Below are positions 3,001-46,400 of a stretch of DNA of 64,000 bases, piece after piece. The stretch lies in the NCBI RefSeq assembly GCF_902652985.1, contig NC_047016.1, positions 24,738,001 through 24,802,000 on the forward strand, read 5' to 3'. Source of the stretch: Pecten maximus (lineage: Eukaryota). The stretch's first letter is position 1. Every line of letters begins with the position of its first letter. Made by a program: the position numbers.

Positions 3001-6000
3001 TCAATTCGCTTCAACCAAGCTAAAGCCAATAGGTTGTAATGGAATTCATGCCAGCACTATCCTTTCGGCCAGACTTGGGCAGATTGGATGTATACTGCCC
3101 ATATAGCATAAATCACATACATGTATATTTCATGATCGTGAATGTCCAGCCAAATCTAAAAATAGATGCAGGATATATTTTAGTTATATTTTTTTCAACA
3201 GTTTCAATTTAAAGAGTTTCTTTGACAATCATTTTAACAACATGTTTAAGCTTTTGCAAGTTTTTTTATAATAATTTTCATCCTTTTTTTATCTTTACTT
3301 TTACTAGTTACTTCTGTAAACTTTCCACACTAATATAAAATATCCATTCGGCTTGAAATCCATATTTACATTGCATTGCACATGGACATGTAAATTTAAG
3401 AGAAATTGCTGGTACGTCATTTTATTAACATTTGCTGTAAGTCTACTTTGCAAAACTGGACAGCAGTGACGATAATGACAACCTTACGAACATAAAACAA
3501 CACTCGTTACAAACCGACACAGTCCCACGTGGCTCGAACTGATACAGTACAGATGGGCGGTCTCTCTCGGGCAAAAACTTCCTTTTGCAGCACTAATACT
3601 GTTTGGACAATTTTCGAATACCCCACTTCCAAAAAAAAGTATGGTTCTCCTTTTTAACAAAATACAAAGGAAATACAGTTCTACTAGAGACAGCTTTTGC
3701 AATCAGACACAACCTTAGAAGCATTACATTATGAATCTCATCTTAGATTGGACACTTGAAATGTAGCTTTCACAACATTTCTGTGATCCATTTGCCATTC
3801 GTAAGTTACTTAGCAAAGTGCACTGAAATATTATTTGAAAACCACAACTTTTATTGAAGTATTATCTTCCTAAATTGTGAAAATGTTCCATGATTTTATT
3901 CCCTTTACGTTCTACAAACCTAGCAGCCCAGCAACACCACTCTAAATTGTCTAGGTAATTGTCCGTATAAAGGGAGGTAAACCTTACAATCTCATTTTTT
4001 CAATACAACCTCATAAACCTGGATTGTATTCTGTTCATAGGGCTTACGTATCCCTCCCCTTAGCCCTGTTGTAATTCGTGGCGTACGATTTCCTCACCAC
4101 ATATATAAGTACAATAAAGATAGAATCTAGTTTCTGTGTTACAATTGTTATAAGATTGGGGAAAACTTCATATGAAAAATCAATTGTGTGGAATATCGCT
4201 TTCCAGTCAAGATGCGAAAAACAAAATAAAAAACTCGGACGTAAGCAGACATTTTGTTTGCAATTTATGACGTAACGTCATTATCCAAATCATGGCACTA
4301 CAACTGGTTTCTGCGTAGGGAAGACAATGGAAAACGTTCTTTAGTATATAATACTACAGTGACATATACACAAATTTATTATGTAGGCGAATTCACTAGA
4401 TTTGCCTTACAGGGGTATTGTTAGGGTATATTTGTATTCCTAATTAAGACGTAATTTGAAAGCAGGTTATATTTTATCCCACAGGCCCGTCTCTAGTTAC
4501 ACAATTTTCGCGGAATATACAAATATAATGTAAGTTAATTCTGCCAGTTAGAGGTCTGGTGAGCTGAAACGGAGAACGGCATGTCTTTTCCTTTTATAGA
4601 CAAGTTTATAAAACATCTACTAGATGATATATGCATCACTTCTTCAATTGTATTGAAATCACCCCTTACTTCAATCTAAAAACCTACAGAAATGGTGTAG
4701 CCTGTCGTAATTCTACACGTTTGGAATGTCGGTTAATGCAGATCAACCTTGCTGATATGGTAGCATGCCACATTTTCTTTCAGATGTAACCGGATCATCT
4801 CAAGAGATAACAAAGGCTGCATTAGTTGAAAACAGGGGTTGTTAAGAAGAGGCAAGGGTGAGTGAGTAACCATGAAAGGATTTCTGTGTTTTTATTTACA
4901 CATCGTTAAACATACATTATGTATCAAGTCCAAACAGACCGACAGTGCAGATTTGCATCAGGTTCATAGACATGGCGAACACATCTTTTTATTTGCACCT
5001 AGACATTACAGCATGTCGCAAGTGACGTGTGAAAAGACTTCCGGGTAGAGCGTTTTATAGCATCTCCTGTCCGGACTAAGCGCTTTTTCACCTATGACGA
5101 TCTGTAATATTAGAAAATGGCGGATGTTGAAGATATTTCCCAGCTGGAAAATGTTGAAAGTGACAGTATAAGAAAGACAATCAAGGAGAGATATGCCAAA
5201 GACAGAATATATGTAAGTACATCAAAGACGAGTCAGATTTAGAGAGATATCACATATAAGATATGCTATGTACAGCGGGGACGAAACAGAAAAAGGGAAA
5301 GATATCAAAGATTAGGCTATAGTAAGTGAGCGGGGACGAGTCAGAGCTAGGAGAAATACACTGTACCTTATGGTGAGATATGTTTATTTGGAGAGGTGGA
5401 TAAAAGGACAATTTGATTTGGAGTTATTCTTGAGATAAAGTCTGTATGGAAGTTGATTATGCTCATAATAATACGGTACATTTTAATGTCAACATCGCTC
5501 TATATTGAAAATTAATGTTCATACCATTATCTATTACATCTAATGTACCTGGTTACTTGAATTTTTGAGTTTTTTAGGATATGAAGATGATAAATATTTT
5601 AGAAATACTAGCATGTTGAAATGAATTAAACCTGCCGTATTTCATATAAATTTTTAACTTGAAATTGACTTTTATTTATTAAAGTCCCTTGATTATTTCG
5701 CAAAAAATACAAAGACTAGTCATTATAGGCCTACACGTATTATTGAAATCATATCTGGTGGTTATTTTAATTGTTGAAATAAGGTTCTCCACAAATTATA
5801 AAGAGCAGCATCGCAGGTATATTTGGCTGATTATGTGTATATATTTCATTACACATATGAATTTAAGATAGAGTAGCCTTTTGTTAAGCAGACGAGTCTG
5901 TAGAAATCAATAATTATCAAATCTGTATCAATATTTCTTCAACGGACCATGGTGATATCGCAGAGCTGTTATTGTAGTATCGTCATCAGAGAGCATACAG

Positions 6001-43400: not shown

Positions 43401-46400
43401 GGCAACATTATGATATATATGTGGGAGATTACTCCCTCTTTATGTTGAAAACCTACATAATACTCATTTTAACTTGATACTGACAACAAAACAATTACCA
43501 AAACTTGTATAATTATGTCGTTTAAGCTGGCAACAAAACATTCTTATCATGCAGCGTTATTATTTCAGAGTGATGCTGACGAAGCCGAAGTGAATACTGA
43601 TAACTTCCAGGTGGATGTGCTTGGTTTGATGTTTGTTATGCTATTTTGTTTGATGGTGTTGATCCAGTTCATTGGAATGATTGTACACAGATGGGGAACT
43701 TTCATACATTTGATAGCAATTACGAATGTACCGAATCCGTTTACGAAAAGTGTAAGTGAGACTGATGATGAAATGGAAAGTTCTAAACACGTCGCCGAAA
43801 AGGTACTAGAATTTTGTGAAAGATTAGACGCCGAGACAATTCCAGATTATGCAATGAATAGCGATGAAGAAAAAGAAGAGGAGGAACAGGTGAACCGTGC
43901 AATGGAGGAAGTTATAAATAACATTCAAGAAAAAGGAACGAAAAATATTCCTGGTTCTATGAATCCGCTTGGTAAGAGTATTAGACAATCGGAATTCGGT
44001 ACAACAAGCAGGGGAAGGACGGATAGAAAAAGTGATATGGTAAAATCGATTATCAGGCGTACAACTCGAACGGAAACCAACATCTTGGATTTGACTGAGA
44101 AACAGGAAACAGATAAAAGTACAGCAGCAAAACAAAATGTGTTAAATGATATCAAGCTAAACGTTCCGAAATTACGTTTCGGTGCGGGAGTGCCTCTACA
44201 AAAACATTTCATGATGGAAGTAAGAAACAGAAAGCTACCTAACACTCCTGGGGATTTTATGAAAATGGAACGTTTGAGTAATACTCTCACCAGAGGAGGA
44301 TACGATCATGACACTTTCATCGATCGCGAAGAAGATACTGATCCCATTTACGACACGATCCCAGCATTGTGTGCTATGGACAAAGCATTCTCTAAGAAAT
44401 TCAAGACATTCAGAAATCAGGAGAAACAGGAGAAATGGAAACGGGGATCAAGGCAAACCAATACACTTCGCGAATACAGTGATCATGACCTATACTAGAA
44501 GTTAGATAGTATGTGGAAATGGAATATTACAATAATCAACGTGTATATAATGAAACATGGATAAAAACATTGCAAACATAGCAACGATCATGCATTTCTG
44601 TTCACTCGAAAGTGATACATGTATCAATAACTAGTGGTATTGTAGTTAAAAGAATAATATTGCAGTTGGTTATCTAAGCATTGTAGCTGTATGTCGAATT
44701 GTGCAGTTGCAATAATGTTGACGATCGCACGGTCTCTGTCGGTTAAGTATATATGTCCGAGTCAGTCATGCATAGTCCACTTGTTTATAATATTGATAAT
44801 GGGTTGTTTGATGATAAAGGCTCAACATCTTTTATTTAAGACAGTCTATGCACAAGCCGACATGTCAAAAGAAATCAGTGAACGTAACTGCTACCATTCC
44901 ATTCCATTAAAAAAAATATTAGACAAGCAATTATCTATAGAAGGCGTGACAGCGATATTATATCCCCCATTTTCACCACGCATATCAAATTAATAATCTT
45001 ATATAAATGGCATACTTCAATATAAGAACCCCTAACTAATGGCAGTTATGACATTTCTCAATCCCAAATATAGGTGAAAAATTATTTGAAGTATATATTG
45101 ACATTCCTGTATATTTATCATATGCTTAGTCCGTTATCTTATTTCCCTATATTAAGTGGAAGGCTGAATGTGTAACACATGCTCTACACCATAATCTATT
45201 ACTGGTAGTGTATCATGCATTTGGTACATTGTTTGAAAGTGCTTCATTCAGTTTGTTCATTAATATGTAGCTCTGTATAGTTATCAATTATAAATATTCA
45301 TTCCAAACTTAACGCTATGTATTTGTTTCAATTTGATGATGGGATATTATTTATTACGCGATTATAATGTAGTAAAAATAAATATGCAATGTGCATTTAC
45401 TATTAAAAAAAATTCACTAACTTTAAATATTAGCTTTTGAAAAATGTCGATACCAGCATGTATGTATTACGCGGTAGAAAATTCACTGCAAAAAGAACAT
45501 TCGTCACGAGGTTATCACCCCTTACTTGTATAGTGTTAGTAACTTTGGTGGCCATGACGTAAACAATATCCAGAAATAAACGAAAAAATGTTGATTAACA
45601 TTCTATTGTTTACGAAATTTGTGACAGGACACAATGACTTCTAAGCATATTTATCTTGAAATGTACTTAATACTCATATTAAGTATTTGATGCATTTGCT
45701 TTACTTATTGTTTACGTATGATTATATCCGAGCCAGACGTACTACTCTGTGTCGATATAATGTGATTTATAATCTAATCAGCATTGCTTTATATAACTAA
45801 AGCTGATAAATTTTCCGAATGTGTCCGTAGTGGATATTATGATGATTTAATCATTTATGTTAATTGATGTACATGATATAGAGTGAAATAGATAATTATG
45901 TGAACGTAAAAGACACTATAGCAGATTATACACATTTAGATATATTTCAAGCAAAGTACATTGGACGAATCTCCTGCGATGCCCAAATATCTCAATTTGT
46001 GCTGTCAAAATGCAGGAAATTACACCACAGGGCAGTCGATTATCGCATTATTTTATTATTATGTACCTTGTCATACGCATATCATATAGTTATACTTTTA
46101 CATACTCTCCAAAGAAAACAATACTTTTATAGCAGTTAACATAGTGAATACATAGAGTAAGTATACATGACAGGTGCTATACCTGTCATAATGTTATTAA
46201 GAAAAAGGAAATGAGTGTTAGAAATATTTGATTTTTATCGCTTCATAACTGTTATGGCTTATAAAGATATTCACATTTAAAATGTAATCCTCGTTGTTTT
46301 TTTTATTAGACTCAACACCCTTTACCCTTTTCTTGTTCCTGTTTTAGGATATGCGTCCGCTACATTAGGGAAAAAATCGTCACAACAGTTATAGTTAGAG

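What the first reader, a model, noticed from the sequence alone, without database searches (positions are those of the whole stretch)
5117..44498. Complete myosin-motor / chitin synthase fusion gene
Seen: motor exons (5117-27889) splice in phase through a linker exon into a full GT2 chitin synthase with intact EDR, QRRRW and WGTRE, and no intervening stop or second start is needed. Known: lophotrochozoan (e.g. bivalve Atrina CS1-type) and fungal class V chitin synthases carry myosin heads linking chitin secretion to actin, implicated in shell matrix formation. The class is not new, but automated pipelines may split it into two genes, and this copy looks like a diverged paralog.
[Added by the scan's program, not by the reader: the finding's places include an assembly gap (unread letters, written N; its length is only estimated) at 32659 to 32815, 33091 to 33228. 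Whether the letters on both sides are continuous or in frame is not known: test that first.]
Basis: partly seen in the sequence, partly recalled or inferred. Interest (0 to 1): 0.75.

Follow-up and report, generated by a model that had tools for sequence, protein, structure and literature searches.

The report
Scallop myosin–chitin synthase fusion gene
This is one intact 34-exon king-scallop gene that joins a myosin motor to a membrane chitin synthase, a kind of gene known in molluscs since 2006 and already held in the public protein set as a single unnamed protein, so it is real but ordinary.

Summary
On the + strand, 34 exons (5117-44498) encode a full myosin head, an IQ-like neck, a poorly conserved linker exon, a chitin-synthase N-terminal membrane domain and a GT2 chitin synthase. 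The EDR, QRRRW and WGTRE motifs are intact. The whole-codon translation of all 34 exons is an exact substring, in order, of one public protein, Pecten maximus XP_033731954.1 ('uncharacterized protein LOC117321593', 2442 aa).

Of 33 junctions, 32 are readable and in phase (31 GT-AG, one GC-AG). At junction 20/21 the N run 33091-33228 hides the acceptor and about 4 coding bases. The arithmetic fits (7325 + 4 = 3 x 2443), but continuity cannot be read from the window. The other N run (32659-32815) is intronic.

A 50-protein tree puts the gene in a scallop-specific pair of paralogs, far from Atrina Ar-CS1 (37% identity). Its branch evolves faster than the sister branch (65% against 78% identity for the same Pecten-Ylistrum pair). 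The gene is not split in this protein set; it only lacks a name. No transcript data could be consulted. Verdict: already known, low interest.

The parts
5117..5212 (+). exon 1: start codon and first 32 residues of the myosin head
   Evidence: exact match to P0162 residues 1-32. Donor GT, ends in phase 0. Pfam Myosin_head positions 1-29, E 0.005. In-frame TAG 2 codons upstream.
12126..12191 (+). exon 2 (motor)
   Evidence: P0162 residues 33-54 exact. AG/GT, phase 0/0. Myosin_head positions 30-52.
12724..12951 (+). exon 3 (motor, P-loop GESGSGKTE)
   Evidence: residues 55-130 exact. Myosin_head positions 54-124, E 1.8e-16.
13199..13313 (+). exon 4 (motor, switch [11 protein letters not shown])
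   Evidence: residues 131-168 exact. Myosin_head positions 132-170, E 5.2e-16.
13848..13995 (+). exon 5 (motor)
   Evidence: residues 170-217 exact. Myosin_head positions 165-232. Its donor is the first unit of a 39-bp minisatellite.
15246..15348 (+). exon 6 (motor)
   Evidence: residues 219-252 exact. AG/GT.
15597..15717 (+). exon 7 (motor)
   Evidence: residues 253-292 exact. No Pfam hit on its own.
15995..16066 (+). exon 8 (motor)
   Evidence: residues 294-316 exact.
16711..16840 (+). exon 9 (motor)
   Evidence: residues 318-359 exact. Myosin_head positions 316-358.
17905..18142 (+). exon 10 (motor, switch II LDIAGFE)
   Evidence: residues 361-439 exact. Myosin_head positions 363-433, E 2.5e-19.
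18935..19099 (+). exon 11 (motor)
   Evidence: residues 440-494 exact. Myosin_head positions 437-494.
21120..21262 (+). exon 12 (motor)
   Evidence: residues 495-541 exact. Myosin_head positions 491-530.
21561..21674 (+). exon 13 (motor, variable loop), followed by a GC-AG intron
   Evidence: residues 543-579 exact. The donor dinucleotide is GC.
22071..22146 (+). exon 14 (motor)
   Evidence: residues 581-605 exact.
23750..23805 (+). exon 15 (motor)
   Evidence: residues 606-623 exact.
25615..25764 (+). exon 16 (motor)
   Evidence: residues 625-673 exact. Myosin_head positions 582-639, E 2.2e-12.
26590..26710 (+). exon 17 (end of the motor)
   Evidence: residues 675-714 exact. The Myosin_head match on P0162 ends at residue 718.
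   Evidence: residues 715-768 exact. Ends in phase 0, donor GTATTT. 'IQ-like' is by eye only; no Pfam IQ row at E <= 0.01.
28652..29058 (+). exon 19: linker, poorly conserved
   Evidence: residues 769-903 exact. Phase 0 in, phase 2 out. No Pfam family. 36-41% identity to other scallop proteins over neck plus linker.
31669..31840 (+). exon 20: first membrane segment of the synthase half
   Evidence: residues 905-961 exact. Ends in phase 0, donor GTAAGT.
32659..32815 (.). N run 1, inside intron 20
   Evidence: No residue of P0162, P0001 or P0009 is left for an exon here.
33091..33228 (.). N run 2: hides the acceptor and about 4 coding bases of exon 21
   Evidence: P0162 residue 961 ends exon 20 and residue 964 starts at 33231. 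Not filled in.
33229..33347 (+). exon 21, readable part
   Evidence: residues 964-1002 exact. Donor GTAAGT, ends in phase 0.
33549..34465 (+). exon 22: chitin-synthase N-terminal membrane domain
   Evidence: residues 1003-1307 exact. PF23000, E 3.5e-20.
35137..35253 (+). exon 23
   Evidence: residues 1309-1346 exact.
35730..35858 (+). exon 24
   Evidence: residues 1348-1389 exact.
36092..36177 (+). exon 25
   Evidence: residues 1391-1418 exact.
37188..37290 (+). exon 26
   Evidence: residues 1420-1452 exact.
37735..37888 (+). exon 27
   Evidence: residues 1454-1504 exact.
38400..38585 (+). exon 28
   Evidence: residues 1505-1566 exact.
38973..39108 (+). exon 29 (GT2 core, LDGDVE)
   Evidence: residues 1567-1611 exact. 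Glycos_transf_2, E 1e-3, below the curated cut-off. Motif.
39252..39452 (+). exon 30 (GT2 core)
   Evidence: residues 1613-1678 exact. Chitin_synth_2 positions 251-291. Fungal chitin synthase 1 chains 8k3p, 7xs6 and 7stl at E 2e-4 to 6e-4.
40444..40671 (+). exon 31 (GEDRWL and QRRRW)
   Evidence: residues 1680-1754 exact. Chitin_synth_2 positions 323-383, E 3.8e-12. Hyaluronan synthase 1 chain 8smm at E 5.7e-5.
41510..42473 (+). exon 32 (C-terminal membrane block, SWGTRE, charged stretch)
   Evidence: residues 1756-2075 exact. Motif.
42842..43013 (+). exon 33
   Evidence: residues 2077-2133 exact.
43569..44498 (+). exon 34: last membrane segment, acidic tail, stop TAG at 44496-44498
   Evidence: residues 2134-2442 exact. 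Stop codon.

Best explanation
The stretch 5117-44498 (+) is one intact protein-coding gene of the king scallop Pecten maximus, public locus name LOC117321593. It has 34 exons over 39.4 kb and encodes 2442 residues.

Layout of the protein:
- N-terminal myosin head, residues 4-718.
- Short neck, then a poorly conserved linker.
- N-terminal multi-pass membrane domain of animal chitin synthases, residues 966-1255.
- Cytoplasmic GT2 catalytic core, residues about 1565-1800, with the donor-binding, EDR and QRRRW motifs.
- C-terminal membrane block carrying SWGTRE, then an acidic tail.

Inferred mechanism, from what is established for GT2 processive synthases and argued in the mollusc literature. The GT2 core polymerises UDP-GlcNAc and threads the chain out through its own membrane channel. 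The motor, on the cytoplasmic side of the same polypeptide, ties the enzyme to cortical actin, so that the site, timing or tension of chitin deposition follows the cytoskeleton.

Shown here: the gene structure, the domains and motifs, the identity with the public protein, and the place in the family tree. Inferred, not shown: transcription as one unit in this animal, ATPase and actin binding, chitin synthesis, and the tissue of expression.
For: 1. Identity. 34 of 34 exon translations are exact, ordered substrings of P0162. There is exactly one residue between exons at split codons and none at phase-0 junctions. Visible coding bases: 7325, plus 4 masked, equals 7329 = 3 x 2443. P0162 is XP_033731954.1, Pecten maximus.
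2. Splicing. 32 of 33 junctions are readable, 31 GT-AG and 1 GC-AG, all phase-compatible, with no stop in any exon.
3. Domains. On P0162: Myosin_head over the full profile 1-679 (586 bits), PF23000, Chitin_synth_2 and Glyco_trans_2_3. The window's own exons give the same families at collinear profile positions.
4. Motifs. [49 protein letters not shown]. All 26 synthase-bearing rows examined carry the last three.
5. The fusion is conserved. Single proteins from Ylistrum, Sinanodonta and Patella (each over 2300 aa) and from Tegillarca (1986 aa) align collinearly from the motor exons into the synthase exons; the Ylistrum protein covers its residues 4-2419 over 5120-44453. A full-length Lingula relative (2374 aa) is among the hits.
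6. One promoter in a relative. The first 35 or so residues of the motor-less Mizuhopecten isoform X2 align to this gene's exon 1 (E 8e-7). Its next part aligns to the linker exon. So even that model starts at the myosin first exon.
7. Literature (passages read). Mollusc chitin synthases carry an N-terminal myosin head and are expressed in shell-forming tissue (PMC2241824). Lophotrochozoan synthases with a motor form three clades and the motor groups with myosin III/XVI (PMC3942024). Annelid and mollusc myosin-chitin synthases are class XVI and convergent with the fungal class XVII (PMC3942036). In one search the best matches without a synthase are myosin IIIa/IIIb and XVI.
Against: - No transcript data were available, so a single transcription unit in this animal rests on gene structure and on a public model. 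That model was presumably made on the same genome, so it is not independent evidence.
- The acceptor and about 4 bases of exon 21 are masked. Two N runs sit between exons 20 and 21, so continuity there is not readable.
- Switch I has Ala where myosins usually have Gly (SSRFAK against SSRFGK). This holds for 14 of the 25 motor-bearing synthase rows looked at; 9 have Gly and 2 gave no match. Its effect on the ATPase is unknown.
- No Pfam IQ motif was found at E <= 0.01.
- The gene's branch evolves faster than its sister paralog, which could mean relaxed constraint.
- Motor-less models exist for related genes in other scallops.
Confidence: 0.9

Rival explanations
1. Two genes read as one: a myosin-only gene (exons 1-18) and a chitin synthase gene with its own start in or after the linker exon.
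For: There are in-frame ATGs at 28679 (exon 19) and at 31724, 31736 and 31739 (exon 20). Motor-less or synthase-less models exist in public annotation of other species: a Mizuhopecten model of 1597 aa, a Dreissena model of 1521 aa with motor and PF23000 only, and a Physella 'myosin-IIIa-like, partial'.
Against: Exons 18, 19 and 20 join in phase with consensus sites. The public protein of this species is one 2442-aa chain. All 50 proteins picked for the tree carry a chitin-synthase family and 49 of them also the myosin head; the exception is the Mizuhopecten isoform. That motor-less Mizuhopecten model still begins with the myosin first exon.
Confidence: 0.04
2. A decaying duplicate: the faster-evolving paralog is losing function and only looks intact.
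For: Identity between Pecten and Ylistrum is 65.3% overall (67.9% in the synthase half) for this paralog. For the sister paralog it is 78.3% (85.5%). From the duplication node the tree path is about 0.36 against about 0.21.
Against: There is no stop in 7325 readable coding bases over 34 exons. Every catalytic motif looked for is present. The end branch of 0.14 is below the tree's median of 0.19. The motor is still 70-74% identical between scallop genera. Exon G+C is distinct from intron G+C.
Confidence: 0.03
3. An assembly chimera: the scaffold joins two different chitin synthase paralogs at the N runs between exons 20 and 21.
For: Two N runs lie in the one intron between 31840 and 33229. Several paralogs sit on the same chromosome-size contig: P0161 and P0162 share a longest contig of 55,138,983 bases. 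The end of another paralog lies in this window.
Against: Both sides rank the same relatives first. The motor half is 73.5% and 70.2% identical to the Argopecten and Ylistrum members of its own clade, against 67.8% and 64.8% for the sister clade. The synthase half gives 67.6% and 67.9% against 65.4% and 65.5%. The margin on the synthase side is small. Homologs leave only two residues unaccounted for across the gap.
Confidence: 0.03

Closest known systems
Pecten maximus XP_033731954.1, 'uncharacterized protein LOC117321593' (P0162)
   Same: All 34 exon translations of the window are exact substrings of it, in order. Same length arithmetic and same domains.
   Different: Nothing in sequence that can be read. 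The public record has no functional name, and it carries two residues where the window is masked.
Atrina rigida Ar-CS1 (Q288C6, P0214), the founding mollusc myosin-chitin synthase (Weiss et al. 2006, cited in PMC2241824)
   Same: Same architecture: N-terminal myosin head, membrane domain, GT2 core with GEDRWL, QRRRW and SWGTRE.
   Different: 36.8% identity overall. It lies on the other side of the deepest split of the 50-protein tree. Ar-CS1 and its clade keep Gly in switch I, whereas this gene has Ala. The scallop member of the Ar-CS1 clade is another gene (Mizuhopecten LOC110445656).
Sister paralog in scallops: P. maximus LOC117322317 (P0161) and Ylistrum balloti LOC132556893 (P0009)
   Same: Same 34-HSP collinear layout, same motifs, same chromosome-size contig.
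   Different: 62-63% identity to the window gene. The sister pair is more conserved between genera (78.3% against 65.3%).
Fungal class V/VII chitin synthases with a myosin XVII head
   Same: A motor and a chitin synthase in one chain.
   Different: Convergent. The fungal motor belongs to another myosin class and the fungal tails carry Cyt-b5 and DEK_C (PMC3942036 and PMC3942024, passages read). Neither domain appears in P0162 at E <= 0.01.
Myosin III / myosin XVI
   Same: They are the best non-synthase matches of the motor of the scallop relative P0009 (about 36-38% identity). The literature places the lophotrochozoan synthase motors with classes III/XVI.
   Different: No kinase or ankyrin N-terminus, and a membrane synthase in place of the usual tail.

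Membership tests
Lophotrochozoan myosin-chitin synthase (motor-linked chitin synthase) | N-terminal myosin head domain in the same reading frame as the synthase | tested here: met
   Myosin_head over profile 1-679, 586 bits, on the exactly matching public protein. 10 of 14 motor-exon frames hit the family at collinear positions. Phases are compatible at the 32 readable junctions.
Lophotrochozoan myosin-chitin synthase (motor-linked chitin synthase) | GT2 chitin synthase core with donor-binding, acceptor (EDR), product (QRRRW) and synthase-specific (WGTRE) motifs | tested here: met
   LDGDVE, GEDRWL, QRRRW and SWGTRE are present. Chitin_synth_2 hits on exons 30 and 31.
Lophotrochozoan myosin-chitin synthase (motor-linked chitin synthase) | Multi-pass membrane domains before and after the catalytic core | tested here: met
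   PF23000 on exon 22 (E 3.5e-20) and on residues 966-1255 of P0162. The C-terminal membrane block was judged by eye from hydrophobic runs in exons 32-34; no topology program was run.
Lophotrochozoan myosin-chitin synthase (motor-linked chitin synthase) | One transcript spans motor and synthase | not testable with these tools
   No transcript data. Indirect support only: a single public model and the Mizuhopecten isoform that starts at the myosin first exon.
Lophotrochozoan myosin-chitin synthase (motor-linked chitin synthase) | Makes chitin; the motor binds actin and hydrolyses ATP | not testable with these tools
   Needs biochemistry.
Ar-CS1 orthology group (Atrina / Mytilus shell chitin synthase clade) | Falls in the clade that holds Atrina Ar-CS1 | tested here: not met
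   In the quick IQ-TREE of 50 proteins, Ar-CS1 sits in a 20-row clade and the window gene in the other, 30-row clade; both carry SH-aLRT 100. Identity is 36.8%.
Zakrzewski et al. groups A-C of motor-linked synthases | Assignment to a named group through the paper's reference sequences | not tested
Only the text passages were read.
Myosin superfamily, catalytically competent motor | P-loop GESGxGKT, switch I NxNSSRFGK, switch II DIxGFE | tested here: inconclusive
   The P-loop and switch II are canonical. Switch I has Ala for the usual Gly, as in 14 of the 25 motor-bearing synthase rows examined. The consequence is unknown.
Fungal class V/VII chitin synthase (myosin XVII) | Cyt-b5 and DEK_C domains in the tail; motor of class XVII | tested here: not met
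   No such Pfam rows at E <= 0.01 on P0162. The best non-synthase motor matches are myosin III/XVI.

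The most novel reading that the evidence does not exclude
The gene might make chitin synthase with or without its motor from one promoter. Exon 1 ends in phase 0 and the linker exon 19 starts in phase 0, so skipping exons 2-18 stays in frame. The public Mizuhopecten isoform X2 of the orthologous clade has that shape: its first 35 or so residues match exon 1 and it then runs into the linker. 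Add the faster evolution of this scallop-specific duplicate and the clade-wide Gly-to-Ala change in switch I. Together these could mean a synthase whose coupling to actin is switched by splicing, with a motor that acts as an anchor or tension sensor rather than a transporter.
Probability: 0.12. Interest if true: 0.4.

Novelty: already known. Interest (0 to 1): 0.15.

Why it matters
Myosin-chitin synthases are thought to link the cell's actin cortex to the chitin scaffold on which mollusc shell mineral grows. A well-defined gene model is therefore useful for shell-formation work in a farmed scallop.

This analysis adds three things. It gives a functional name to a public protein labelled 'uncharacterized'. 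It gives an exon-level map with phases, including a GC-AG intron. It shows that scallops carry a lineage-specific pair of these genes, of which this one evolves faster.

None of this changes what is known about the class.

Tried and rejected
- Word-index searches with window exons and lengths='longer' cannot return proteins above 2000 residues, so they missed the full-length relatives. The exhaustive search and a search seeded with the Ylistrum protein found them.
- My first splice search against the Ylistrum homolog left junctions 6/7, 9/10, 13/14, 18/19, 23/24 and 24/25 ambiguous or empty. Exact matching to P0162 settled them. For junction 13/14 the answer is the GC donor that I had ranked as unlikely.
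- Pfam gave nothing for the linker exon, for exons 32-33, for the GPCR-like frames, for the intron-1 ORF or for the minus-strand synthase exons. The 'Bindin' row for the last exon (E 1.8e-4, 0 stretches) was rejected as a compositional match to the acidic tail.
- Rfam found no family at gathering score in the whole window.
- No paper in the searched library holds the locus name. A search for 'Pecten maximus' + 'chitin synthase' + 'myosin' listed 5 papers, none about this gene; I judged this from titles and abstract starts only.
- A named group A-C could not be assigned, because the supplements are closed.
- Not checked: transcript evidence of any kind; the closed collections metagenome contigs and viral contigs; genome contigs, which holds bacteria and archaea only and was not used. 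Structure and complex prediction were not run, since nothing in the verdict depends on them.
- The joined step was left out. Whole-protein work used the public protein P0162 that a search returned.
- The tree used 50 proteins that I picked from the 274 held at that time. Left out were myosin III/XVI and other non-synthase myosins, short fragments, unnamed read-derived proteins and most motor-less synthases. The method was 'quick' (LG+G4, SH-aLRT only), and the program warned of three long-branch joins, none of them near the window gene.

Full report
**What is there.**
Stop-to-stop frames on the + strand between 5.1 and 44.5 kb hold a run of short conserved pieces. I sent them to Pfam one frame at a time.
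- On the motor side, 10 of 14 frames hit Myosin_head. The profile positions rise in order from 1-29 (5117-5212) to 582-639 (25583-25816).
- On the synthase side, 33543-34466 hits the chitin-synthase N-terminal membrane domain PF23000 (E 3.5e-20). The frames 39194-39514 and 40344-40679 hit Chitin_synth_2 at positions 251-291 and 323-383.
- Four motor frames, the linker exon and ten synthase-side frames gave no family on their own. They are short or lie outside Pfam models.

**The gaps, tested first.**
- Exon 20 has its acceptor at 31668/31669. It ends at 31840 on a whole codon, followed by GTAAGT.
- N run 1 (32659-32815) lies inside the following intron.
- N run 2 (33091-33228) ends one base before the next readable coding letters.
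- Three relatives place the residue encoded at 31838-31840 and the first whole codon after the gap (33231) close together. Two residues lie between them in the Pecten and Mizuhopecten proteins, and a few more in the Ylistrum protein.

So no exon is missing in either gap. The acceptor of exon 21 and about four coding bases are masked. If the N run has its true length, the register fits a phase-0 acceptor at 33225, and the totals fit: 7325 readable coding bases + 4 = 7329 = 3 x 2443 codons for a 2442-residue protein plus stop. Continuity cannot be read from the window itself.

**Gene model.**
I first placed splice sites by phase and by residue count against a Ylistrum balloti protein of 2426 aa found by the exhaustive search. 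A further search returned Pecten maximus XP_033731954.1 (P0162, 2442 aa, 'uncharacterized protein LOC117321593'; name).

Exon by exon, the whole-codon translation of each of the 34 exons is an exact substring of P0162, in order. Exactly one residue lies between neighbours where a codon is split, and none where the junction is in phase 0. Of the 33 junctions, 31 are GT-AG, one is GC-AG (donor after 21674) and one is masked.

The ATG at 5117 is preceded by in-frame stops. The stop codon is TAG at 44496-44498. The window is therefore king-scallop DNA, or something indistinguishable from it at the protein level. The gene is already in the public set as one fused model.

Whole-protein work used P0162 as returned by the search.

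**Domains and motifs.**
P0162 carries these families:
- Myosin_head over the full profile (residues 4-718, 586 bits);
- PF23000 (966-1255);
- Chitin_synth_2 and Glyco_trans_2_3 (1571-1800).

No IQ, Cyt-b5 or DEK_C row appears at E <= 0.01. The motor has [19 protein letters not shown] and LDIAGFE. The synthase has LDGDVE, GEDRWL, QRRRW and SWGTRE.

The Ala in switch I is not private to this gene. Among 25 motor-bearing synthases examined, 14 have it: every bivalve member of this clade that matched the pattern, plus Patella vulgata. Nine have Gly (the Ar-CS1 clade and others) and two did not match the pattern. The three myosin III/XVI rows have Gly.

The nearest solved structures by sequence are these:
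- for the motor, myosin XV, VIIa and Va;
- for exon 31, hyaluronan synthase 1;
- for exon 30, fungal chitin synthase 1.

**Place in the family.**
A quick maximum-likelihood tree of 50 related proteins (49 with the motor, plus the motor-less Mizuhopecten isoform) splits them into two large clades, each with SH-aLRT 100. Atrina Ar-CS1 lies in one, together with Mizuhopecten LOC110445656. The window gene lies in the other. There it sits in a six-row scallop clade made of two sister groups:
- {P. maximus LOC117322317, Ylistrum LOC132556893};
- {window gene, Argopecten 'chs-2-like X2', Mizuhopecten LOC110459670, Ylistrum LOC132560604}.

For the same Pecten-Ylistrum pair, identity is 78.3% overall (85.5% in the synthase half) in the first group. 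In the window gene's group it is 65.3% (67.9%). 'Diverged paralog' is thus right in the sense of a faster-evolving, scallop-specific duplicate. No motif or frame is damaged.

**One unit or two.**
No transcripts could be consulted. Four points favour one unit:
- the in-phase consensus junctions through exons 18-19-20;
- the single public model;
- the conservation of the fusion in the many proteins;
- the Mizuhopecten isoform X2 (1597 aa, no motor). Its first 35 or so residues align to this gene's exon 1 and its next part to the linker exon.

So even the motor-less model starts at the myosin promoter. Because exon 1 ends and exon 19 starts in phase 0, such a skip would also be in frame here. Whether it happens is open.

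**Known biology (passages read).**
- Mollusc shell chitin synthases carry an N-terminal myosin head. They are expressed in shell-forming tissue, and inhibiting chitin synthesis deforms larval shells (PMC2241824).
- Lophotrochozoans have three clades of motor-linked synthases and one clade without a motor. The motor is related to myosin III/XVI, and the fusion is independent of the fungal one (PMC3942024; PMC3942036).

The mechanism I give (GT2 polymerisation and export, with the motor coupling the enzyme to cortical actin) is taken from this literature and from the domain layout. It is not shown here.

**Verdict.**
The gene is a known kind and is already present as a single public model, so interest is low.

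Noticed in passing
window 58914-59453 and 62095-62364, minus strand: These are the last two coding exons of a second chitin synthase gene, convergent (tail to tail) with the first and running off the window's end. The best match among the proteins held is Argopecten irradians 'chitin synthase chs-2-like isoform X3' (1351 aa), at 87.5% and 57% identity. It is only 34-61% identical to the proteins of the first gene's clade. Whether it has a motor cannot be seen from the window.
   Followed up: partly
window 50847-51979, minus strand: Two adjacent open frames (258 and 115 aa) lie between the two synthase genes and show hydrophobic runs. The language-model search points to rhodopsin-family 7TM receptors of molluscs (score 0.93; a lead only). 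Pfam finds nothing.
   Followed up: partly
window 11175-11732, plus strand (intron 1): A 185-aa open frame with a Cys/His-rich end. It is closest to large unnamed clusters (0.97); the nearest named lead is zf-RVT at 0.88, carried by 16% of members. Pfam finds nothing. It is probably the tail of a retroelement; that reading is partly from memory.
   Followed up: partly
window 13996-15076 (intron 5): A minisatellite of 28 units of 39 bp starts exactly at the first base of intron 5. Each unit begins with the donor-like GTATGT. The unit length is a multiple of three, and the exon-5 frame stays open to 14176, so downstream units are potential in-frame cryptic donors.
   Followed up: no
window 1071-1648, 6651-8839, 22157-23015, 23048-23398, 29475-30238, 31949-32313, 53413-54622, 57536-58071: Long tandem arrays lie upstream of the gene, in introns 1, 14, 19 and 20, and in the intergenic stretch. 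One is 101 copies of a 22-bp unit. These arrays produce the long spurious open frames on both strands seen.
   Followed up: partly
window 21675-21676: Intron 13 has a GC donor (a GC-AG intron). It is the only non-GT donor among the 33 introns.
   Followed up: yes
window 13199-13313 (exon 4): Switch I reads SSRFAK rather than SSRFGK. The change is shared by 14 of 25 motor-bearing synthases examined and is absent from the Ar-CS1 clade and from myosin III/XVI.
   Followed up: partly
P0001 (Mizuhopecten yessoensis LOC110459670 isoform X2) against window 5123-5224 and 28766-29005: This public motor-less isoform of the orthologous clade starts with the myosin first exon and continues in the linker exon. 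It also lacks about 100 residues at the start of the exon-32 region. It may be exon skipping or a model built over an assembly problem.
   Followed up: partly
whole window: No Rfam family reached its gathering score on either strand.
   Followed up: yes
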